64,000 nucleotides of DNA from assembly GCA_964450605.1 (NCBI GenBank), contig CAYVEK010000003.1:32778-96777 (forward strand), in the 5' to 3' direction. This document shows, one piece after another, positions 708 through 34,744 of the stretch; position 1 is the stretch's first letter; every line of letters starts with the position of its first letter. The notes beneath the pieces were generated by a model. The model was not told the DNA's origin and did not search any database. It saw nothing but the letters and a program-made list of their open reading frames with translations. The translations under genes and the position numbers were made by a program. Source of the DNA: an uncultured Candidatus Saccharibacteria bacterium (lineage in GTDB: Bacteria; Patescibacteriota; Minisyncoccia; Phycocordibacterales; CAIZLB01).

Positions 708-821
708 ATTTTCAATGTACTTTATACTTTCGTCCTTTTGGACTCATCAGTCAGGATACACATCCTGAGAGTATAAGGGCAGATGTTACTCTGCCCCGAG
801 GGATTTGAACCCTCTACCAGT

Positions 822-1199
822 TTAGTACTGGTGGACTTCGCGGAAGCCGCGAAAGACGAATATCGCCTCTTTTTTGACCGTACCGTCCGGCTGGGGGGTC
901 TCTTTTACCTCCCGCGGCGTCACGGACTCGATGACCGCACAACCACGGCGACGGGCCTCTGCTTTGAGAGCATCGACCAGCTGGGGCTGGCCCATTGGGT
1001 GAACAGCGTCTCCGGCGGTGAACGTCTCGCCAATATTCCTGGCTCTTTCCAGGAACCAGTCCCGGCCGAGGTCAACCTGGTCAGGGACCACGAAGGCCTT
1101 CTTGTCGGCCCATTCAACAGGCTCGTAGCCGGCCTCACGGGCGGCGTTGAGCTGATCAGCGGTGGCGGCATGAGACATGATGAAATGAAGTTTCTTCAT
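822..1199 (-). CDS. Hypothetical 125-aa protein in the GC-rich island.
   Basis: ORF MKKLHFIMSHAATADQLNAAREAGYEPVEW..., with markedly higher GC than the surrounding genome. A 152-aa ORF on the opposite strand (783-1241) overlaps it; the minus-strand reading is preferred because its sequence looks protein-like and starts MKK. Confidence 0.4.
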   Translation of the reverse strand: MKKLHFIMSHAATADQLNAAREAGYEPVEWADKKAFVVPDQVDLGRDWFLERARNIGETFTAGDAVHPMGQPQLVDALKAEARRRGCAVIESVTPREVKETPQPDGTVKKEAIFVFRGFREVHQY

Positions 1200-1556: not shown

Positions 1557-2315
1557 ATGGATATAAAAATACTACAAAACATAGGTTTAACCGAAGAACA
1601 GGCAAAAGTGTACCTTTGTCTAATATCTTCTGGGACATTACCCGCCCGTAAGATAGCCGTAAATACAGGTATAAACCGGAGCTTGGTATACAAAATATTA
1701 AAGCAATTAATAGAGCAGGAGCTGATTACTGAAACAGAAAACAAGAGATCTGTGAGCACATTCACAGCACTCCACCCTTCAAAGTTACATCGTTTATTAA
1801 AAAAGAAAGAGGACGATTTAAAATTAGCTGATCAATCCTATGAGGAAGCGCTTAGCACTCTAACAACTCATTACAATCTAGTCTGCGGAAAACCATCTAT
1901 ACGTTTCTATGAAGGTTTAGATGGTATAAAAATGATGTATAAGGATATACTTAGAACCGGAACAAATATAGACATAATCCGATCACAACTAAATGAAAAC
2001 AGCCCTGAGTTTCAGTCATTGATACAGAGTCAAATAAAACTGCAAGCAGCCAAAGGCATACGTGTGAGAGCTATAGTTCCTCACGATTTACCTTATGATG
2101 ACAAAATTCTAGAGAATGACAGGAAGCACGGTATTGTTCGAAAACGTGTCCCCTCTGAAGACTTGAATTTACCAGCGCTTGTCATTGTATATGGAAACAA
2201 AGTATCTATGACAGCATTTGGCGACTGCATTATTACAACTGTTATTGAAGATAAAACAATCGCTGATACATACCGGATTATTTTTGAAAGATTGTGGAAG
2301 ACTGCTCAGATTTAG
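1557..2315 (+). CDS. TrmB-family transcriptional regulator.
   Basis: The N-terminus, LTEEQAKVYLCLISSGTLPARKIAVNTGINRSLVYKILKQLIEQELI, is the typical TrmB winged helix-turn-helix. The length (252 aa) and C-terminal effector-domain layout also fit. Confidence 0.75.
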   Translation: MDIKILQNIGLTEEQAKVYLCLISSGTLPARKIAVNTGINRSLVYKILKQLIEQELITETENKRSVSTFTALHPSKLHRLLKKKEDDLKLADQSYEEALSTLTTHYNLVCGKPSIRFYEGLDGIKMMYKDILRTGTNIDIIRSQLNENSPEFQSLIQSQIKLQAAKGIRVRAIVPHDLPYDDKILENDRKHGIVRKRVPSEDLNLPALVIVYGNKVSMTAFGDCIITTVIEDKTIADTYRIIFERLWKTAQI

Positions 2316-2353: not shown

Positions 2354-3169
2354 ATGCCTCGGTTAATTCAAAAAAAATTTTATACCATTAGACATTTTGA
2401 AGATGCAAACACTTTGCGTTCATCAGGGTTTGACGCCCCGCTTATAGAAAACAACCAAAAATTAATAGACTCTATACAGAAGTACTTTATAGTTGAAGTT
2501 CAGAAACAAGGTATGAAGTGTATACGACTGTACACGCCCGACAAGAAACGTACACTCCAAACGAGTAAGTTACTCAAGTGCGCATTTGAAGATAAACATA
2601 TTATGACGGACATATGTATTGATAATAGACTTGAAAATATCAACCAGGGAATACTGAAACTACCTGAAAAATATAATGATGGAGATCATTTTAGACCACT
2701 TGAGGAAGTTTGGCCAATATTTTGGCACAATACTTTTGAGAAGAAAGATCTACTATACAGGTTTGGAGTTTCTCATAAAGAAAATTTTGTGAAGCTTGGA
2801 AACACATACGCTGAAACAGTAGAAGGTTATTACAATTTTTTGATCTCCTTTTTAGAGAATATTAATTTACAAGATGACACTCTTCACATAATTATAGGAC
2901 ATTCTATTTGTCTTAATATAATCCTTGAACTTGAATACATAGCGAAAGACATGACAATAAAATCTGATTGCCTAACCATCCCCGAAGGGGACTTGCCTTT
3001 TGTTACCTCGGCGTATTTCCATAAATTAAAGTCAAAATCACTTTTACTTAAGCAAGACTTCGGAGGTATTAGATTGCATGAAGCAAGATATATGTCAAAA
3101 GAATACTTTATACAACTGCTCAAAAGAGAATCTTTGACACTAAGAAAACTTTTACTTGGACACAACTAA
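2354..3169 (+). CDS. Histidine phosphatase (phosphoglycerate mutase-like) family protein, putative.
   Basis: An N-terminal TIRHFEDAN (RH motif) and a later IIGHSICLNIILE (GHS) resemble the two signature His motifs of the family. The call is weak. Confidence 0.4.
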   Translation: MPRLIQKKFYTIRHFEDANTLRSSGFDAPLIENNQKLIDSIQKYFIVEVQKQGMKCIRLYTPDKKRTLQTSKLLKCAFEDKHIMTDICIDNRLENINQGILKLPEKYNDGDHFRPLEEVWPIFWHNTFEKKDLLYRFGVSHKENFVKLGNTYAETVEGYYNFLISFLENINLQDDTLHIIIGHSICLNIILELEYIAKDMTIKSDCLTIPEGDLPFVTSAYFHKLKSKSLLLKQDFGGIRLHEARYMSKEYFIQLLKRESLTLRKLLLGHN

Positions 3170-5509
3170 CGATTCTAATATATCTGCTACAGGTAAAACC
3201 CACCGTAGTGTAGAAACAGAACTTACATCAGCTTCCCAAACCTTCTTATGAATACGGGCAGCAACTTCTAAGGGCAGTCCTGATTCGAGCAGATATTCTC
3301 GAACAGTCTGTGGGTCCAATGCCCCTATATAAGAAGGAGAACTTTGCACACCCTCTGTCTCATCAGTTTTTTCAGTTATACCTCTTGCCAACCTGCCAAA
3401 CACATCATGAGTTCGAATGATCCACTCGGCCAATTTTAATCTCTTCTCATTACACCACTCTGGCGTTACTCTTCTTAAGAGTTTTGCACCAATTCTTTCG
3501 TGGATACCCGGAGTATTTATATTAAATAATTTTCCAAGATCGTGAGCAAACATGGCCATTCGCATAACCTGCCGAATATCTTTTGCCTCTTCAGCCATAC
3601 CATGTTCAGACAAGAAATCTATCATACTATCAGTCTCTAATAGTCTAGATGATGTTTCTTGATGATACTTTAGAGGCGATCCTAGGTGTGTAACCTTTTG
3701 CTCAGCACCCCCTTTTTCAGCTTTAGGTATAAAATCTTTTGAATCTCTTTTCTCCAGCACTTCCCTCATCTTTTCACTCTTATCGTAATCGATCAGTCCA
3801 ATCAAGTCGCGATCCTTGCCCCCTATGGGGCTTCTACTCCTTCGTTGATTCAATAACCATTCTCGATACGAATCATCATCTAACTCTTTAGAACAATAAT
3901 CAAACCAGCTATGAAAACCTTCAGGATGTGGTACAGCCACACGAGCCTGTTCAGCCAAAACAGTTTCCTCGGTAGAGATCTCTATCTCTACACCTTGCTC
4001 TTTGAGTTCCATCTTCTCTTTGGCAGACCTTATGGACTCGAGTGGTTCTGGGAGAGAGGCACGATTTGGTACCGGAGGTGCTGATGGTTCTTTTTCTGTA
4101 GTATTATAAAATCCAGCAACTTGATGCATATATCCAATCTCGGTATCAGTAATATGTTCAGAGTTCCAATGTAGGGTGGTAACCTGTGCACCACTTTCTT
4201 TTTCTGCTCGGGCAACTTCTTGAGCAATGGCTAACCAACCAGTACAAAAAGTTCCCATTTCTGGTTTTTTAAAAGGTACAGGGATATAAGGACCATACAC
4301 GTTTTCATAATATTCTTTTAATACACCGACAATCTTAAGCCCAGGATACTCTTGGGTGGTCTTACGAGCTCTTTTTACAGCTCGATCGATAAATCCCTCT
4401 TTCTTTCCATCAGGAATCTTATCAAGCAAGGATTCATCAAGGCGGATGATGCCGTTCCGCAAATCTTTTTCCACATCTGGGTTCATTAATATTTTCAATT
4501 TTCCGTTCTCAGATTTAACTCCCGCTTTTCTAAAAGTCAGAGGAAATGTTTGCATTGCCTCTTCTAAGTTCTGACTTTCAATTCCGTAAAAACTTCGAGT
4601 ATCATTCATCCTATCATCGACAGACCAGCGAGTATTTGGAGATATTTGCCGTAGTTTATTTAATACGGGTAAAATATGTTCTGCCTTGCCAACATGTACA
4701 TCCTTATCCATAGACAACATATGTGCCCCGTATATTCCATTCCAAAATGGGCGGTAGAGCAAACCGGCACCAGGCCATATATTCACATCTGTTAAACCCT
4801 CTTTCTTCAGTTCTTGTTCTGCCTGGTCAACCATCTGTAAAATATCATTTTCCCATTTCATAGATTCAAAGCTTTTACCAAAATGTTCACGTATTGCCAA
4901 AGTAATATCTTCTTTAGTTTGTAATGCATCTAGTTCTAATACCGGCAAACCGAGTGATTGCGCCTCTTGTATCGCCTCCATATCCATCGCAATAGCACGC
5001 TTAATCTTGCCGTGCATCTTAGCCTCCGTATCAGCACTAACAGGTTTACCCTTTCGTAATTCACGTATCAACTGTCTATCAAATGAAAGCTCTTCTGCCC
5101 TATCTGGCGGAAATGATAAATTCAATATTTCGACACCAATACCTCTTTCATCACAATATCTTACCAAGAAATCAAGCTGATCTTTGGACCGAGGAAATCC
5201 ATCTAGGATGGCGTATGACTGACCCTTAGCAAACTCTTGACTAGCTTTTTTCAAAAAACCTTCTTCCAAACCTTCGATGAGTTCACCTTTAGATCGAGCA
5301 GAATCTCTCTTAAGTAACACCTCTTCATCTCCGGACTCTCTTGCAAATGTTCCGACATGAAAAGATTCGGCTCCTAGCATACCTTGTAGGTGCGCAATCT
5401 GTGTAGACTTACCAGCCCCGGGCATACCCAGCACACAAACAAATCTCTTTGATCGTGTCAGATGTTCTTCTCTTGTTTCTAGCGAGTTTTCTTTCTTTAA
5501 TTTTTCCAT
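3152..5509 (-). CDS. Multidomain protein: N-terminal adenylate-kinase-like NMP kinase, an unknown central region of about 400 aa, and a C-terminal HD phosphohydrolase domain.
   Basis: P-loop GMPGAGKSTQ and an ILDGFPRSKDQLDFL lid/NMP-binding motif (compare Adk GAPGAGKGTQ / LLDGFPRT). C-terminal H..HD signature: MAMFAHDLGKLF ... IIRTHDVFGR. Confidence 0.8.
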   Translation of the reverse strand: MEKLKKENSLETREEHLTRSKRFVCVLGMPGAGKSTQIAHLQGMLGAESFHVGTFARESGDEEVLLKRDSARSKGELIEGLEEGFLKKASQEFAKGQSYAILDGFPRSKDQLDFLVRYCDERGIGVEILNLSFPPDRAEELSFDRQLIRELRKGKPVSADTEAKMHGKIKRAIAMDMEAIQEAQSLGLPVLELDALQTKEDITLAIREHFGKSFESMKWENDILQMVDQAEQELKKEGLTDVNIWPGAGLLYRPFWNGIYGAHMLSMDKDVHVGKAEHILPVLNKLRQISPNTRWSVDDRMNDTRSFYGIESQNLEEAMQTFPLTFRKAGVKSENGKLKILMNPDVEKDLRNGIIRLDESLLDKIPDGKKEGFIDRAVKRARKTTQEYPGLKIVGVLKEYYENVYGPYIPVPFKKPEMGTFCTGWLAIAQEVARAEKESGAQVTTLHWNSEHITDTEIGYMHQVAGFYNTTEKEPSAPPVPNRASLPEPLESIRSAKEKMELKEQGVEIEISTEETVLAEQARVAVPHPEGFHSWFDYCSKELDDDSYREWLLNQRRSRSPIGGKDRDLIGLIDYDKSEKMREVLEKRDSKDFIPKAEKGGAEQKVTHLGSPLKYHQETSSRLLETDSMIDFLSEHGMAEEAKDIRQVMRMAMFAHDLGKLFNINTPGIHERIGAKLLRRVTPEWCNEKRLKLAEWIIRTHDVFGRLARGITEKTDETEGVQSSPSYIGALDPQTVREYLLESGLPLEVAARIHKKVWEADVSSVSTLRWVLPVADILESLVVSK

Positions 5510-5655
5510 AAAATATTTGTAAGCTTTTTAATCATTATAGCTGAAATGAGTAAATTCAACTATTATTTAACCTGTATATAATATATGACAATTTTTTTAT
5601 ATACTGACCAGCTAAAATATATTTGTTTTAAAATTGAAACAATTTAAAGTAAAAA

Positions 5656-5696
5656 GAAAACCCCCACCATCTCTGGCAGGGGGTTTTCTTTTTTTA
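5656..5696 (-). terminator. Rho-independent terminator, bidirectional, downstream of rpsT.
   Basis: aaaaccccc-accatctctggca-gggggtttt hairpin flanked by an A-tract and a T-tract, immediately 3' of the rpsT stop. Confidence 0.7.
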
Positions 5697-5699
5697 AAA

Positions 5700-5969
5700 C
5701 TACTTAGTAGCAGCCTTCTTTATAAGCGCATTCAATCGAGATTTCTTTCGAGAGGCAGCACCATCTTTGATAGTGTTTGCTTTTGCAGCTTTGTCATAAG
5801 CTTTGTAGGCCTGTGGTAGAAGTGCGTTAGCTTCTTTTACCTTACCTTCCTTAACAAGCTTTTTGATAGACTTTGCTACATTTTCGATAGTTTTCTTTCG
5901 TCGTAGGTTGTAAACTTTTTTTCGTTCACCTGCTCGAAGAGCTTTTTTTGCTGATGATGTTATTGGCAT
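5700..5969 (-). CDS. rpsT: 30S ribosomal protein S20.
   Basis: MPITSSAKKALRAGERKKVYNLRRKK... is S20-like: basic, 89 aa, with a SAKKA-RQ-type N-terminus. Confidence 0.85.
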   Translation of the reverse strand: MPITSSAKKALRAGERKKVYNLRRKKTIENVAKSIKKLVKEGKVKEANALLPQAYKAYDKAAKANTIKDGAASRKKSRLNALIKKAATK

Positions 5970-31023: not shown

Positions 31024-31060
31024 TTATATGTATTTAAAGAACAATCGTAACAGTATAATG

Positions 31061-31131
31061 TGCGGGATAAGAGAATCGAACTCTTGTCTACTGCTTGGAA
31101 GGCAGTCATTCTACCACTAAACCAATCCCGC
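31061..31131 (-). tRNA. tRNA-Gly (anticodon UCC).
   Basis: Hand-folded: acceptor GCGGGAT/ATCCCGC, D-arm GTTT-AGTGGTA-GAAT, anticodon stem ACTGC/GCAGT with loop CTTCCAA, T-arm AAGAG-TTCGATT-CTCTT. No encoded CCA. Confidence 0.85.
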
Positions 31132-31169
31132 TTTCTTATTTCAAATCTGGTATAATACTAGCAAAATAT

Positions 31170-32237
31170 ATGCAAATACTCAAGCAGATAAAAGAACATA
31201 TTATAGCCACAGCACTTATACTTATCTGTCTATTTTTTGTATCTTTTATTGCCTCATCGGAGAGGTTTAGAACAAGCCTAAGTACAAATCTTGCAGCAGT
31301 TATTAATAGCAACAAAAAAGGCCAGGGCACCATAGAAGATTATGTATTAAACATATTTTGTACAGAGAGATACAAGACTTACATCAAAGCAGTGAGTGGA
31401 AGTGGAGTTTTTTTATCTGACCCTGACGAAAATACAGGTATTATCCTTACAAACGCCCATGTTGCGAGACATTTGCTCGATGGAAAGAAAAAGTGTGTAG
31501 GCAGAACAGGAAGTCCTGCAGTAACCACTCATAATCTTGTTCTGAGATATATACCGAGCTACTGGCTGGATGAACATAATCAGTATGTTATAGGAGATCC
31601 TGACAAAAGCTCTACTGGAGAATTTGACTTTGCACTTATAGAAGTTAAACGTATAAAAGAAAAAACCGCTTCAAATACAAATATTTACTCAACATTCAGG
31701 CAGAAGCTTCAGGTAAAAGTTAATGACTATAAGCCTAATTATTTTGCAAATATAGATCACTATATCTACTCTTACCCCGCCCAAAAAACACTTTCAGTAT
31801 CTATATACTCCCCTTTGTACAGAAAAAAGGATCGCGTTGAGATCGGTGATATATTCCAAAGTCCTACTCTCAGAACAGAAAACAGTTTACTAGATGCTAT
31901 AGGTTCATCAAATGTAGACCATGGTTCATCAGGAGGTATGATGTTGGCTGTTGATACTTCTTTTTCTTTGGTTGGACTATCAAGTATTTTGATACATGAA
32001 AATAGCCCACAAACGGTCAGAATCGTTACTATGAGACATGTATTTGATGTATTACAAAATGAACTAAAAAACTCTACAGCGCCACAAATAGAAGGCTTTA
32101 AACCGATAATTGCAGATATATTAACAAAAACAAAGATAGACAAAGATATTTACTCAGTATTAAAGAATCAAAAGTTAACAAGTGTACTTGAGAAAAATAC
32201 TCGAGACACACTAGTTAAACTAAACATAATCAAATAA
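31170..32237 (+). CDS. Membrane-anchored trypsin-like (S1 family) serine protease.
   Basis: Catalytic triad in order: ILTNAHV (His), DFALIEV (Asp), GSSGGMM (GxSGG Ser), with an N-terminal TM helix. The start was moved from 31095 to the internal Met at 31170, because 31095 overlaps tRNA-Gly. Confidence 0.7.
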   Translation: MQILKQIKEHIIATALILICLFFVSFIASSERFRTSLSTNLAAVINSNKKGQGTIEDYVLNIFCTERYKTYIKAVSGSGVFLSDPDENTGIILTNAHVARHLLDGKKKCVGRTGSPAVTTHNLVLRYIPSYWLDEHNQYVIGDPDKSSTGEFDFALIEVKRIKEKTASNTNIYSTFRQKLQVKVNDYKPNYFANIDHYIYSYPAQKTLSVSIYSPLYRKKDRVEIGDIFQSPTLRTENSLLDAIGSSNVDHGSSGGMMLAVDTSFSLVGLSSILIHENSPQTVRIVTMRHVFDVLQNELKNSTAPQIEGFKPIIADILTKTKIDKDIYSVLKNQKLTSVLEKNTRDTLVKLNIIK

Positions 32238-32250
32238 TATGAGATGAAAA

Positions 32251-32326
32251 TGGTCGGAGCGCTGGGATTCGAACCCAGAGTCACATCAGCCCAAGTGATG
32301 CATGTTAGCCGTTACACCACGCCCCG
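32251..32326 (-). tRNA. tRNA-Pro (anticodon UGG), with CCA encoded.
   Basis: Hand-folded: acceptor CGGGGCG/CGCTCCG (one G-U pair), anticodon stem CATCA/TGATG with loop CTTGGGC, T-arm CTGGG-TTCGAAT-CCCAG, 3' ACCA. Confidence 0.8.
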
Positions 32327-32354
32327 TTCTGAGAACAATACTACCACAACACCC

Positions 32355-32855
32355 TCAGATTAACAAATTTATATTTTGATAATATTTATGTAGTTTAAAG
32401 CTTTTTTCGGGTTTTTCAGATACCCCTACTCCAAGCCGATCAGAATCTACCACTTTTATAACTATTACTAAATCGATATGGAGATTAAAAAACAGCTTTT
32501 CTGAACAATCTCTTTGAAGCTGTTCAACCAGAAGACTGACAGCACCTGGTCCAAAACGTATGTATTTTGATATCTTGTTTTTTAAACCCAGTGTCTGAAG
32601 GCTTACATACTCATATTCACCAGATCGTATATCACGTGTTTTGACCTCTATAAGTCTTATATCTACCTTGTCCTTATGGATCTTATAGACAATAAGGTCT
32701 ATCTCATACCCCAATCCTTTTACATTTGTTGCAAAAACTTCAAAACCTCTAGATTTCATAAAGTCCAATACAAACAACTCTCCCTTGGTTCCGAGAGTTT
32801 TGTCGGTCAACACCTCCTTTGTATTTGGACGCATATAAGACTTATCCATACCCAA
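32355..32855 (-). CDS. yraN: UPF0102 (YraN) family endonuclease-like protein.
   Basis: GELFVLDFMKSRGFEVFATNVKGLGYEIDLIVYK...IEVKTRD. The true start may be an internal Met. Confidence 0.7.
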   Translation of the reverse strand: MGMDKSYMRPNTKEVLTDKTLGTKGELFVLDFMKSRGFEVFATNVKGLGYEIDLIVYKIHKDKVDIRLIEVKTRDIRSGEYEYVSLQTLGLKNKISKYIRFGPGAVSLLVEQLQRDCSEKLFFNLHIDLVIVIKVVDSDRLGVGVSEKPEKSFKLHKYYQNINLLI

Positions 32856-33050
32856 ATACTAGCAATACAGTGTTAAAGATTATCCAAAGAATTTATAAAG
32901 AATCTATAAAATACTTATAAAATAAGATTAAAAATCTCTATCTCATAGATAAAATCTATAAGTCGTGCTAAATAATGTCTTTTATACACATATCCCCAAA
33001 GTTATCCACATTTTGTCTTATATATCCACCCATCTGTCTCAAAACAATTG

Positions 33051-33121
33051 TGCGGATAGAGAGAATCGAACTCTCGTCTCATCCTTGGCAAGGACGTATT
33101 CTACCACTAAACCATATCCGC
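33051..33121 (-). tRNA. tRNA-Gly (anticodon GCC).
   Basis: Hand-folded: acceptor GCGGATA/TATCCGC, anticodon stem CGTCC/GGATG with loop TTGCCAA, T-arm GAGAG-TTCGATT-CTCTC. Confidence 0.85.
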
Positions 33122-33139
33122 TTTGTCTTTTTGTCTTTG

Positions 33140-33211
33140 TGCACCCACCAGGACTCGAACCCAGAACAACGGTTCCGAAGACCGATGTGATATCCATTTC
33201 ACCATGGGTGC
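33140..33211 (-). tRNA. tRNA-Arg (anticodon UCG).
   Basis: Hand-folded: acceptor GCACCCA/TGGGTGC, D-arm GTGA/TCAC, anticodon loop CTTCGGA, T-loop TTCGAGT. Confidence 0.75.
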
Positions 33212-33223
33212 TTTCAATTTTAC

Positions 33224-34744
33224 TTGAAAAGTATTATATTTCAAATAACTTGTACATCTATGCTATCACCAATCTCTCAAAAAAACAAATCTTTGTCAAC
33301 CTTTGCTTATCCTGAGGAGGTTTTGACTATAATCAAAAAACTCTCAGACAACGGTTTTCAAGCGTTTCTTGTTGGTGGTTGTGTAAGAGACATATTGATG
33401 AATAAGACACCTAAGGATTGGGATATATGCACTTCAGCAACCCCAGATAAAATACAGACCCTATTCCCCGACTCTTTCTATGAAAATGATTTCGGAACCG
33501 TTGGTATCAAATCAGAACTTGGAGTTATAGAGGTAACGCCTTTTAGAACTGAGGGTGAATATAAAGATGGTCGTAGACCTGAGAGTGTTTCATTCGGAAC
33601 ATCTATACAAGAAGACCTTCAGAGACGAGATTTTACTATGAACGCTATAGCACTAAACCCTGTGTCACATGAAACTATTGATCCTTTTGGTGGCGAAAAA
33701 GACATAAAAGACAAGATTATACGGGCTGTAGGCGCCCCAAAAGACCGCTTTTCTGAGGATGGACTGCGTATCATGAGATTATTCAGATTTGCATCTCAGC
33801 TTGATTTTTCTATAGATTACGAAACGCTACAAGCCGCAATAGAGACCAGAGATATACTCTCTCGCATATCAAAAGAGCGCATACGTGACGAATTTACAAA
33901 ATTACTCATGTCTCATAACCCTTCTATAGGTTTTATGTATATGGACAAGACTGATACACTGTCTTTTATAAGTCCCTATATAGCAGAAGCAGTTGGTGTA
34001 GAACAAAATGGCATGCACGCATACCATGTCTTTGAACACCTTGTACGCAGTTTACAGCACGCAGCAGACAAAAACATGTCTTTAGAGCTTCGTTTATCTG
34101 CCCTACTCCATGACATAGGAAAACCGGCTACACGAAAATGGTCTAAAGAAAAAAAGGACTACACTTTCTATGGACATGAGGTTGTTGGAGCAAAGATGAC
34201 TAAAAAGATCTTGACCGATCTAAAGTTTTCACATGAAACAGTTGAGGTGGTTTCAAAATTGGTGCGTTGGCACATGTTTTTTTCAGATACCGAACAAATA
34301 ACCCACTCTGCTGTGAGAAGAATGATATCAAATGTTGGTAAAGAGCATATTTGGGATCTTATAAACCTGCGTATGTGTGACCGTATAGGTACAGGTAGAC
34401 CAAAAGAAGATCCATATAGATTAAGAAAATACATGTCTCTTATAGAAGAAGTCATGGCTGATCCTACTGATGTATCTATGTTGAAGATAAACGGAAACGA
34501 CATTATATCTGAGTTACATGTGAAACCAGGGCCAATGCTCGGTAAAATACTACATATTCTTTTGGATATGTGTCTAGAAAACCCGAAACTAAATAATAAA
34601 GAATCTCTTTTAGCTGAGGCTAAAAACATACTAACAAAAACAGAAGAAGAGATAGATACCCTATATTTGAAAGCATTACAAACAAAACAGGAAGAAAACG
34701 AAGAGAAAATAAGAAAAATCAGACAAAACTACAAGGTTTCTTAA
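33224..34744 (+). CDS. cca: CCA-adding tRNA nucleotidyltransferase with an HD domain.
   Basis: Pol-beta head FLVGGCVRDILMN...DWDI and RDFTMNAIAL, then the HD domain LSALLHDIGKPAT. The start may be the internal Met at 33263. Confidence 0.88.
   Translation: MKSIIFQITCTSMLSPISQKNKSLSTFAYPEEVLTIIKKLSDNGFQAFLVGGCVRDILMNKTPKDWDICTSATPDKIQTLFPDSFYENDFGTVGIKSELGVIEVTPFRTEGEYKDGRRPESVSFGTSIQEDLQRRDFTMNAIALNPVSHETIDPFGGEKDIKDKIIRAVGAPKDRFSEDGLRIMRLFRFASQLDFSIDYETLQAAIETRDILSRISKERIRDEFTKLLMSHNPSIGFMYMDKTDTLSFISPYIAEAVGVEQNGMHAYHVFEHLVRSLQHAADKNMSLELRLSALLHDIGKPATRKWSKEKKDYTFYGHEVVGAKMTKKILTDLKFSHETVEVVSKLVRWHMFFSDTEQITHSAVRRMISNVGKEHIWDLINLRMCDRIGTGRPKEDPYRLRKYMSLIEEVMADPTDVSMLKINGNDIISELHVKPGPMLGKILHILLDMCLENPKLNNKESLLAEAKNILTKTEEEIDTLYLKALQTKQEENEEKIRKIRQNYKVS

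What the first reader, a model, noticed from the sequence alone, without database searches (positions are those of the whole stretch)
3152..5509. 785-aa fusion of an adenylate-kinase-like NMP kinase, an unknown ~400-aa core and a C-terminal HD phosphohydrolase.
The N-terminus carries a bona fide Adk-type P-loop and NMP-binding lid (GMPGAGKSTQ ... ILDGFPRSKDQLDFL). The C-terminus has an HD metal-dependent phosphohydrolase signature (FAHDLGK ... RTHD). The central region matched nothing I recognise.

This pairs a phosphotransfer kinase and a phosphohydrolase in one polypeptide. The only kinase/hydrolase pairing that comes to mind, RelA/SpoT (HD hydrolase plus synthetase), has a different domain order and family. 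In a minimal genome that otherwise looks streamlined, such a large bespoke nucleotide-metabolism or signalling enzyme is unexpected. It sits next to a histidine-phosphatase-like gene (2354-3169), suggesting a small nucleotide or phospho-metabolite module.
Basis: partly seen in the sequence, partly recalled or inferred. Interest (0 to 1): 0.6.

Follow-up and report, generated by a model that had tools for sequence, protein, structure and literature searches.

The report
Kinase–nucleotidyltransferase–HD hydrolase fusion enzyme
This is a real, strongly conserved but rare bacterial gene that joins a nucleotide kinase, a CCA-adding-enzyme-like nucleotidyltransferase and a two-metal HD hydrolase in one protein; its parts are known enzyme types, but the combination and its substrate have not been described.

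Summary
The 785-aa ORF (3152-5509, minus strand) is real and under strong purifying selection (dN/dS ≈ 0.06). The N-terminus is a diverged short-LID adenylate/UMP-CMP-kinase-type domain with its catalytic motifs conserved.

The C-terminus is an HD domain with the extended H…HD…H…H…D pattern that a review treats as diagnostic of two-metal sites.

The kinase–core link recurs by fusion, by a domain-order permutation, and by adjacent thymidylate-kinase-like genes beside stand-alone cores. Nudix hydrolases and a TrmB-type regulator recur nearby. The histidine-phosphatase-like neighbour recurs only in a close relative.

The window also encodes a canonical HD-containing CCA-adding enzyme, so this protein is something else.

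My best reading (confidence about 0.4) is a write/erase pair acting on a nucleotide or short-RNA acceptor, coupled to NMP re-phosphorylation. The substrate is unknown. I rate it a new variant of a known kind, of moderate interest.

The parts
3152..5509 (-). Whole 785-aa ORF (stop codon 3152-3154): kinase, NTase head, helical neck, bridge and HD
4874..5452 (-). Adk/UMP-CMP-kinase-type NMP kinase domain (res 20-212). It includes the P-loop GMPGAGKST (5402-5428), DGFPR (5189-5203) and the short LID with R145/R149/K168/R171 (4997-5086)
   Evidence: Pfam AAA_17 2e-9 and ADK 2e-5. Family profile versus PDB: 3cm0 Adk E 1e-15 over the full domain, 1tev UMP-CMP kinase 6e-13. Motif conservation
4415..4864 (-). 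Pol-beta-type nucleotidyltransferase head (res 216-365) of the PF06042/DUF925 type. It includes the hG[GS]-like WPGAG (4763-4777), catalytic D268-K-D270 (4700-4708) and a class II motif-C-like EKDLRNGIIRLDE (4433-4471)
3926..4414 (-). Helical neck/middle region (res 366-528), with the conserved R380..K383..E387-Y-P-G-L391 helix and two low-confidence loops
3674..3925 (-). Bridge region (res 529-612) carrying the most invariant motif of the family, D545..W551..Q555.R.SR.P..GG.D566 (3812-3877), and Q604-K-x-T-H608
   Evidence: Some short relatives keep the NTase plus this motif without the HD
3155..3673 (-). HD phosphohydrolase domain (res 613-785). Ligands are H616 (3662-3664), H656-D657 (3539-3544), H670 (3500-3502), H701-D702 (3404-3409) and D761 (3227-3229), giving the extended two-metal pattern H..HD..H..H..D
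5562..5682 (-). Upstream control region: rpsT terminator-like hairpin (5661-5682), then promoter-like TTGTCA-18-AATAAT (5562-5591). The fusion appears to be its own transcription unit, and no riboswitch was found
1557..2315 (+). TrmB-family winged-helix regulator (252 aa), a recurrent neighbour of the system in four independent lineages and a candidate regulator
   Evidence: Pfam TrmB 3.5e-12. tblastn hits near the system in L016, L003 (54%), L005 (35%) and L015 (26%)
2354..3169 (+). Convergent 271-aa gene with weak histidine-phosphatase (RHG) similarity. It is conserved only in the 85%-identical relative, so its link to the fusion is doubtful

Best explanation
The protein is a three-activity nucleotide-processing enzyme built around a 'write/erase' core. 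SHOWN: a CCA-adding/poly(A)-polymerase-type Pol-beta nucleotidyltransferase head with an intact G…DxD catalytic motif; an HD domain with the full six-ligand pattern (H616, H656-D657, H670, H701, D761) that a review treats as diagnostic of two-metal sites; and an Adk-type NMP kinase with an intact P-loop, NMP-phosphate arginine and LID arginines. All three are under purifying selection and are genetically linked by fusion, permutation or adjacency. INFERRED MECHANISM: the NTase transfers an NMP from an NTP onto a hydroxyl of a nucleotide or short RNA/oligonucleotide acceptor, making a phosphodiester-linked product (a 3' tail or a di-/oligonucleotide). The two-metal HD domain hydrolyses that linkage or trims or heals the end, releasing NMPs. 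The NMP kinase re-phosphorylates the released NMP to NDP, or supplies the nucleotide substrate, so the cycle does not drain the salvage-dependent nucleotide pool of these small-genome bacteria. In some genomes a Nudix hydrolase adds a pyrophosphohydrolase step, and a TrmB-type regulator probably controls expression. It is not the cell's CCA-adding enzyme, because a canonical one is encoded at 33224-34744.
Against: No substrate has been identified. All domains are acidic (pI 5.4-6.1) and there is no basic body/tail like that of the window's canonical CCA enzyme (pI 8.86), which argues against tRNA or long RNA as the substrate. By-eye alignment suggests that class II motif B (RRD) and motif D (EDxxR) are not kept. 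The NTase carboxylates are lost in several lineages while the HD and kinase motifs persist, so nucleotidyl transfer is not always essential. An Adk-type kinase yields NDP, not the NTP that an NTase consumes. Nudix, UDPGP and TrmB neighbours fit an NDP-X small-molecule theme at least as well. Inter-domain geometry could not be inspected because no coordinates were available.
Confidence: 0.4

Rival explanations
1. The protein acts in small-molecule NDP-X or dinucleoside-polyphosphate metabolism. The kinase makes an NDP or a phosphorylated acceptor. The NTase adenylylates or nucleotidylylates it to give an NpnN- or NDP-X-type compound (a signal, cofactor-like molecule or activated sugar). The two-metal HD domain (as in YqeK on Ap4A) and the partner Nudix hydrolyse it. 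This resembles the kinase + adenylyltransferase cofactor enzymes NadR, RibF and COASY.
For: Nudix partners occur in four lineages, and Nudix substrates are nucleoside-diphosphate-X compounds (established knowledge). The dinuclear HD motif is shared with the Ap4A hydrolase YqeK. A UDPGP gene is adjacent in L010, and TrmB-family regulators recur. The protein is acidic. P0008 replaces the kinase with a region that carries hexokinase-like motifs by eye (unverified, with no Pfam or PDB hit).
Against: Characterised Pol-beta-fold NTases transfer to hydroxyl acceptors, not phosphate acceptors (knowledge). The closest structures are RNA 3'-end NTases. The Nudix partners have no subfamily assignment.
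Confidence: 0.22
2. The protein is a self-contained synthetase/hydrolase for a nucleotide second messenger or alarmone, a functional analogue of RelA/SpoT. The NTase-fold domain makes the signal, the HD domain degrades it, and the kinase controls precursor supply or senses adenylate charge.
Against: There is no similarity to RelA_SpoT, CD-NTase, GGDEF or DAC synthetases. No receptor or effector partner was found. The NTase is dispensable in some lineages.
Confidence: 0.13
3. The protein is a tRNA/RNA end-repair enzyme analogous to Pnkp or Trl1, or to the HD-containing CCA-adding enzyme. The HD domain heals 2',3'-cyclic or 3'-phosphate ends, the NTase rebuilds the 3' end, and the kinase acts on the 5' end.
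For: The head and neck resemble CC-/CCA-adding enzymes. Translation genes are neighbours in three loci. Four of five tRNA genes in the window lack encoded CCA. The same three chemistries occur in Pnkp and Trl1 (knowledge).
Against: A canonical HD-containing CCA enzyme is already present. There is no basic tRNA-binding body/tail. The kinase has the Adk NMP-site motifs rather than those of a 5'-OH polynucleotide kinase, and it is interchangeable with Tmk-like kinases. Motifs B and D appear to be absent.
Confidence: 0.12
4. The protein is a loose fusion of three independent nucleotide-salvage or pool-sanitising activities (NMP kinase, nucleotidase/dNTPase-like HD, accessory NTase) with no coupled chemistry. 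Alternatively it is a conflict/defence or antibiotic-modifying enzyme.
For: CPR-type genomes depend on salvage (knowledge). Some loci have mobile or toxin neighbours: a relaxase in L020, HD-CE in L021, PemK and PIN nearby. P0005 adds a GNAT domain.
Against: Linkage that persists through fusion, permutation and gene adjacency argues for coupled function. There is no PADLOC hit for the fusion or the core. The CPR context is mostly housekeeping. The confident whole-protein model (pTM 0.88) suggests a fixed inter-domain arrangement.
Confidence: 0.1

Closest known systems
Bacterial class II CCA-adding enzyme with C-terminal HD domain (E. coli Cca type; example in this window at 33224-34744)
   Different: There is no PF01743, PolyA_pol_RNAbd or tRNA_NucTran2_2 hit. 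By eye, motif B (RRD) and motif D (EDxxR) are not kept. There is no basic body/tail. The HD has the extended two-metal ligand set, and an N-terminal NMP kinase is added. The genome already has a canonical enzyme.
PF06042 / DUF925 / COG3575 (NTase group XX of Kuchta et al. 2009; structure 2LA3)
   Different: PF06042 proteins were described as single-domain and of unknown function (PMC2794190). Here the head is embedded between a kinase and a neck, bridge and HD. The window protein itself scores below the Pfam cutoff (19.4 against 25).
RelA/SpoT homologues and GlnD (NTase-fold transferase + HD hydrolase with opposing activities)
   Same: The design logic is the same: an NTase-fold 'writer' and an HD 'eraser' in one polypeptide.
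   Different: The NTase and HD subfamilies and the domain order differ. There are no RelA_SpoT, ACT or TGS domains, and these families have no kinase. Only a weak NCBIfam GlnD hit falls on the HD (E 0.012).
Adenylate kinase / UMP-CMP kinase (short-LID NMP kinases)
   Same: The P-loop, the R36-like and R88-like (DGFPR) arginines, the Q after DGFPR and the LID arginines are present. The family profile matches 3cm0 and 1tev over the full domain.
   Different: Scores fall far below the equivalog cutoffs (TIGR01351 37.5 against 168 bits). The domain is a diverged paralogue, fused, and replaced by Tmk-like kinases in split systems.
Pnkp / Trl1 RNA-repair enzymes, and kinase-plus-nucleotide-enzyme pairs such as CMPK2–viperin, NadR and COASY
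   Same: They combine a kinase, a phosphoesterase and a nucleotidyltransferase (Pnkp, Trl1), or pair a nucleotide kinase with a nucleotide-transforming enzyme to supply or recycle substrate (from established knowledge).
   Different: Every domain comes from a different superfamily. The resemblance is functional analogy only, with no homology.

Membership tests
Adenylate kinase (PF00406 / TIGR01351) | P-loop GxPGxGK[GST]T | tested here: met
   GMPGAGKST at residues 28-36. G31, G33 and K34 are each conserved in 25 of 26 family members.
Adenylate kinase (PF00406 / TIGR01351) | NMP-site arginines (R36-like and the DGFPR R88-like) and LID arginines | tested here: met
   R57 (K/R in 19/26), R107 in 26/27, R145 in 25/27, R149 in 26/26, K168 (K/R in 29/29) and R171 in 26/29.
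Adenylate kinase (PF00406 / TIGR01351) | Score above the curated family cutoff (orthologue of housekeeping Adk) | tested here: not met
   PF00406 scores 24.9 against 26.8, and TIGR01351 scores 37.5 against 168 bits.
Adenylate kinase (PF00406 / TIGR01351) | AMP + ATP = 2 ADP activity | not testable with these tools
   Needs an enzyme assay.
PF06042 NTP_transf_6 (DUF925, COG3575) | Pfam score at or above the gathering threshold of 25 bits | tested here: inconclusive
   The window protein scores 19.4 bits (E 1e-3). Homologues P0011 (31.3) and P0044 (25.2) pass, and 10 of 39 members hit at E<=0.01.
PF06042 NTP_transf_6 (DUF925, COG3575) | Pol-beta head fold like 2LA3, with hG[GS] and DxD | tested here: met
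Class II tRNA nucleotidyltransferase / poly(A) polymerase (PF01743) | Head + neck fold | tested here: met
Class II tRNA nucleotidyltransferase / poly(A) polymerase (PF01743) | Sequence membership (PF01743 hit; motif A GGxVRD…DxD) | tested here: not met
   There is no PF01743 hit at E<=1. hhalign aligns only the motif A region (84% probability), with G-A-G…D-K-D in place of GGxVRD…DxD.
Class II tRNA nucleotidyltransferase / poly(A) polymerase (PF01743) | Motif B (RRD, ribose recognition) and motif D (EDxxR, base templating) | tested here: not met
   By-eye alignment to the window's canonical enzyme gives 'QRRDFTMNA' against 'QTFPLTFRKA'. The EDxxR-equivalent positions are poorly conserved. This is not a formal structural alignment.
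Class II tRNA nucleotidyltransferase / poly(A) polymerase (PF01743) | Basic body/tail that binds tRNA | tested here: not met
   All segments have pI 5.4-6.1, whereas the canonical enzyme's C-terminal part has pI 8.86.
HD-domain metal-dependent phosphohydrolase superfamily (PF01966) | H…HD…D metal ligands | tested here: met
   H616 in 39/39, H656 in 38/39, D657 in 39/39 and D761 in 36/37.
HD-domain metal-dependent phosphohydrolase superfamily (PF01966) | Extended dinuclear pattern H…HD…H…H…D | tested here: met
   The additional H670 (38/38) and H701 (37/38) are conserved. The pattern is defined in PMC8177086. Actual metal content is not testable here.
HD-domain metal-dependent phosphohydrolase superfamily (PF01966) | Fold and Pfam score | tested here: met
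RelA/SpoT homologue (RSH) | RelA_SpoT synthetase domain C-terminal to the HD, plus TGS/ACT | tested here: not met
   No such Pfam or NCBIfam hits were found. The domain order is NTase then HD.
Known anti-phage defence systems (PADLOC-DB v2) | Match to a defence-system protein model | tested here: not met
   There were no hits for the fusion, the stand-alone core or the 271-aa neighbour. Only the Tmk-like partner of L004 hits the kinase models PDC-M51B and VakA.

The most novel reading that the evidence does not exclude
The family is a self-contained synthetase–hydrolase–kinase machine for a so-far-undescribed nucleotide-derived product, such as a linear di- or oligonucleotide, a dinucleoside polyphosphate or a 5'-cap-like NpnN structure. 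It would serve as a signal or RNA-end mark in Patescibacteria/CPR and a few other bacteria. In this reading the uncharacterised PF06042/DUF925 NTase is the 'writer', a two-metal HD (plus Nudix) is the 'eraser', and an NMP kinase ties the cycle to the adenylate/nucleotide pool under a TrmB-type regulator. It would be a functional analogue of RelA/SpoT built from different parts.
Probability: 0.15. Interest if true: 0.8.

Novelty: new variant of a known kind. Interest (0 to 1): 0.5.

Why it matters
The fusion works as a Rosetta stone for PF06042/DUF925, a nucleotidyltransferase family that has had no assigned function since it was classified in 2009. It ties that family physically and genetically to a two-metal HD hydrolase and a nucleoside-monophosphate kinase, and often to a Nudix hydrolase and a TrmB-type regulator. 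That gives a concrete, testable biochemical hypothesis (writer, eraser and recycler of a nucleotide linkage). The host organisms are small-genome, salvage-dependent bacteria whose nucleotide and RNA-end metabolism is poorly understood. If the product proves to be a new signal or RNA-end modification, the finding would matter for CPR physiology. If it is only a salvage or repair enzyme, it is a modest addition to the known NTase–HD enzymes.

Tried and rejected
- **Sole CCA-adding enzyme: rejected.** A canonical PolyA_pol + RNA-binding + HD + tRNA_NucTran2_2 gene lies at 33224-34744.
- **Riboswitch upstream: none.** The weak Rfam hits at 5611-5714 are the rpsT terminator hairpin. No cis-regulatory RNA was found in 12 homologous loci.
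- **Defence system:** no PADLOC hit for the fusion or the core.
- **Histidine-phosphatase module:** the 271-aa neighbour recurs only in the 85%-identical relative.
- **Second adk in the window:** none found.
- **AFDB50 fold search:** the library was unavailable. The viral library gave only generic tRNA-NTase/PAP-head hits.
- **Profile search with A2 in the word-indexed database:** added only generic kinases.
- **Metagenome scan:** gave one extra locus.
- **P0008 N-terminus:** no Pfam or PDB match. Its hexokinase-like motifs are a by-eye impression only.
- **Nudix and Tmk-like partners:** no equivalog assignment.
- **Literature searches:** no description of this architecture. The search for '2LA3' returned only lithium-garnet papers.
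- **hhalign of the core against the canonical CCA enzyme:** aligned only motif A.
Full report
**Observation.** The window holds an ATG-started ORF of 785 aa at 3152-5509 on the minus strand. The gene lies downstream of rpsL-rpsG-fusA-rpsT. A terminator-like hairpin separates it from rpsT, and promoter-like hexamers precede it, so it looks like its own transcription unit. A 271-aa gene on the opposite strand converges on it with an 18-nt overlap. The ORF is a real gene. Its orthologue in L016 is 85% identical, with dN/dS 0.06 overall (0.07 kinase, 0.055 NTase, 0.11 middle; dS is saturated in the HD part). AlphaFold2 with a 39-sequence alignment gives mean pLDDT 91.4 and pTM 0.88 for the whole protein, and 92.0 and 0.92 for residues 215-785.

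**N-terminal domain.** Pfam gives AAA_17 (2e-9) and ADK (2e-5, just under the gathering score). NCBIfam adk models hit at up to 1.9e-9, but far below their equivalog cutoffs (37.5 against 168 bits). A profile of the family matches short-LID adenylate kinase 3cm0 (1.4e-15) and UMP-CMP kinases 7e9v and 1tev over the whole domain. Across the family the following are conserved: the P-loop, the R36-like K/R57, D103-G-F-P-R107, Q111, R145, R149, K/R168 and R171. The domain therefore has what an NMP kinase needs, but it is a diverged paralogue rather than the housekeeping Adk. No other adk-like sequence is in the 64-kb window. The rest of the genome could not be examined.

**Central region.** This region is not unknown. 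Pfam NTP_transf_6 (PF06042) hits residues 243-376 at E 1e-3. Homologues P0011 (31.3 bits) and P0044 (25.2 bits) pass the gathering score, and 10 of 39 family members hit at E<=0.01. PF06042, also known as DUF925 or COG3575, is group XX of the nucleotidyltransferase-fold classification. That paper describes the group as probably active NTases of unknown function (PMC2794190).
- *Foldseek:* agrees (3wfp E 5e-5, 2la3, 4wc2).
- *hhalign:* aligns the helix–G–DxD segment with motif A of the canonical CCA enzyme encoded in the same window (84% probability).

G249, D268 and D270 are conserved in 33/36, 35/37 and 33/37 sequences. By eye, 'EKDLRNGIIRLDE' (347-359) resembles class II motif C ('EKDIKDKIIRAVG' in the window's own CCA enzyme). 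Motif B (RRD) and motif D (EDxxR) have no conserved counterpart. That comparison is not a formal structural alignment.

**Distribution and architecture.** The family is rare. I found 8 clusters in the 5.8-billion-cluster collection. There are 207 representatives at E<=1e-3 and 55 at E<=1e-30 among 1.84 billion proteins. Scans found 5 loci in 185,579 species genomes and 1 in the metagenome scan. Named genomes are Nomurabacteria, Peribacteria, Paceibacterota and Saccharibacteria (CPR/Patescibacteria) plus an alphaproteobacterial MAG. High-GC members also exist.

A census with domain HMMs built from the alignment gave about 42 kinase–NTase–(mid)–HD fusions, about 22 stand-alone NTase–HD cores, and one permuted core–kinase protein, P0084. 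The roughly 430-aa 'HD-only' relatives are compact cores. Of the 64 proteins with both NT and HD hits, 33 keep all three catalytic motif sets. The HD ligands are almost never lost. The NTase carboxylates are lost in about nine, for example D270H in P0019, P0021 and P0035. No source names the architecture; JGI calls one member 'RimJ/RimL…/adenylate kinase family enzyme' because of an extra GNAT domain.

**Gene neighbourhood.** The kinase link is the strongest signal.
- *Kinase:* stand-alone cores have a thymidylate-kinase-like gene directly upstream in L004, L005 and L015. These kinases are about 35% identical to each other and fall below the dTMP-kinase equivalog cutoff. L014 has an AAA_17/33 kinase-like gene upstream, and L010 has one three genes away. 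With the fusions and the permutation, this shows functional coupling between a nucleotide kinase and the core.
- *Nudix:* Nudix hydrolases recur in four independent lineages. In L016 the gene sits directly upstream and overlaps the fusion's start. In L003 a homologue (38% identity, 1e-40) forms the C-terminal half of the protein directly downstream. L004 has an adjacent one. In L020 the operon reads HD–kinase, NTP_transf_2, NUDIX.
- *TrmB-family regulator:* it recurs in four independent lineages, namely window/L016, L003, L005 and L015.
Its family assignment is weak.

Contexts are mostly housekeeping (ribosomal proteins, aminoacyl-tRNA synthetases, tsaD), and PADLOC finds nothing. No riboswitch precedes the gene.

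**What it is not.** It is not the cell's CCA-adding enzyme. The window encodes a canonical one at 33224-34744 (PolyA_pol 1e-36, RNA-binding domain, HD 8e-15, tRNA_NucTran2_2), next to a tRNA cluster in which most genes lack encoded CCA. Unlike that enzyme, whose C-terminal part is basic (pI 8.9), every segment of the fusion is acidic (pI 5.4-6.1). That argues against a tRNA-sized substrate.

**Mechanism.** Shown: three nucleotide-handling catalytic domains with conserved active-site residues, genetically coupled. Inferred: the NTase and HD domains form a writer/eraser pair, as in RelA/SpoT, GlnD and the HD-containing CCA-adding enzyme. The NMP kinase recycles the NMP released or supplies substrate, as nucleotide kinases do beside other nucleotide-transforming enzymes. 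The head's nearest relatives add NMPs to RNA 3'-OH, Pol-beta NTases use hydroxyl acceptors, and the HD has a PDE-type two-metal site. My preferred reading (about 0.4) is therefore addition and removal of nucleotides on a nucleotide, oligonucleotide or short-RNA acceptor, coupled to NMP re-phosphorylation. The rivals are:
- NDP-X or NpnN small-molecule metabolism (0.22), favoured by the Nudix, UDPGP and TrmB neighbours and the YqeK-like motif.
- A new second-messenger synthetase/hydrolase (0.13).
- tRNA/RNA end repair (0.12).
- Uncoupled salvage or a conflict function (0.10).

**Verdict.** Each domain belongs to a known superfamily, and NTase–HD pairing is a known design. However, this family, its fusion with an NMP kinase and its substrate are undescribed in the libraries and literature I searched. 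I class it as a new variant of a known kind, with interest 0.5.

Noticed in passing
window 722-776 (-): A full-length match to the type III hammerhead ribozyme (Rfam RF00008): 45 bits against a gathering score of 48.5, E 1.2e-7 in the 6.2-kb search and 6e-9 in the 301-base search. The canonical CUGAUGAG…CGAAA core and three helices are present. It lies just 3' of the MJ1673-like ORF at 822-1199 (-). The first 2 kb of the window are also more GC-rich (0.44) than the rest.
   Followed up: partly
window 33224-34744 (+), with tRNA genes at 31060-33211: A canonical class II CCA-adding enzyme with its own HD domain lies beside a cluster of tRNA genes. Four of the five tRNA genes in the window lack an encoded 3' CCA.
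   Followed up: yes
L003 10219-11523: A 434-aa protein directly downstream of the fusion combines an N-terminal P-loop (weak nucleoside/nucleotide-kinase similarity) with a C-terminal Nudix-like domain. That domain is homologous to the Nudix gene upstream of the fusion in L016. It may be a second kinase–hydrolase fusion in the same neighbourhood.
   Followed up: partly
L020 6001-9430: In a high-GC genome the permuted protein (degenerate NTase-like region, then HD, then Adk-like kinase) overlaps a separate NTP_transf_2 gene, and a NUDIX gene follows. The surrounding context (relaxase, helicase, HTH genes) looks like a mobile element.
   Followed up: partly
P0005 (L007 6001-8994) and P0008 (L009 6001-8892): P0005 adds a C-terminal GNAT (RimJ/RimL-type) acetyltransferase to the fusion. 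P0008 replaces the Adk-like domain with an unassigned ~490-aa N-terminus that shows hexokinase-like motifs by eye, and its HD ligands are degenerate.
   Followed up: partly
L018 6104-7228 (-) and L010 3022-4902 (+): A radical-SAM gene (MoaA/maturase-like, with a weak viperin-family hit) converges on the fusion in L018. A UDPGP-family sugar-1-phosphate nucleotidyltransferase sits directly upstream of the stand-alone core in L010.
   Followed up: no
L001 3805-4836 and 9409-10113: Next to the Nomurabacteria fusion are a 343-aa protein with a DHH-like motif ('FDHHAPG') and a 234-aa protein with an HD motif ('LALHDLGKP'). Neither has a Pfam hit.
   Followed up: no
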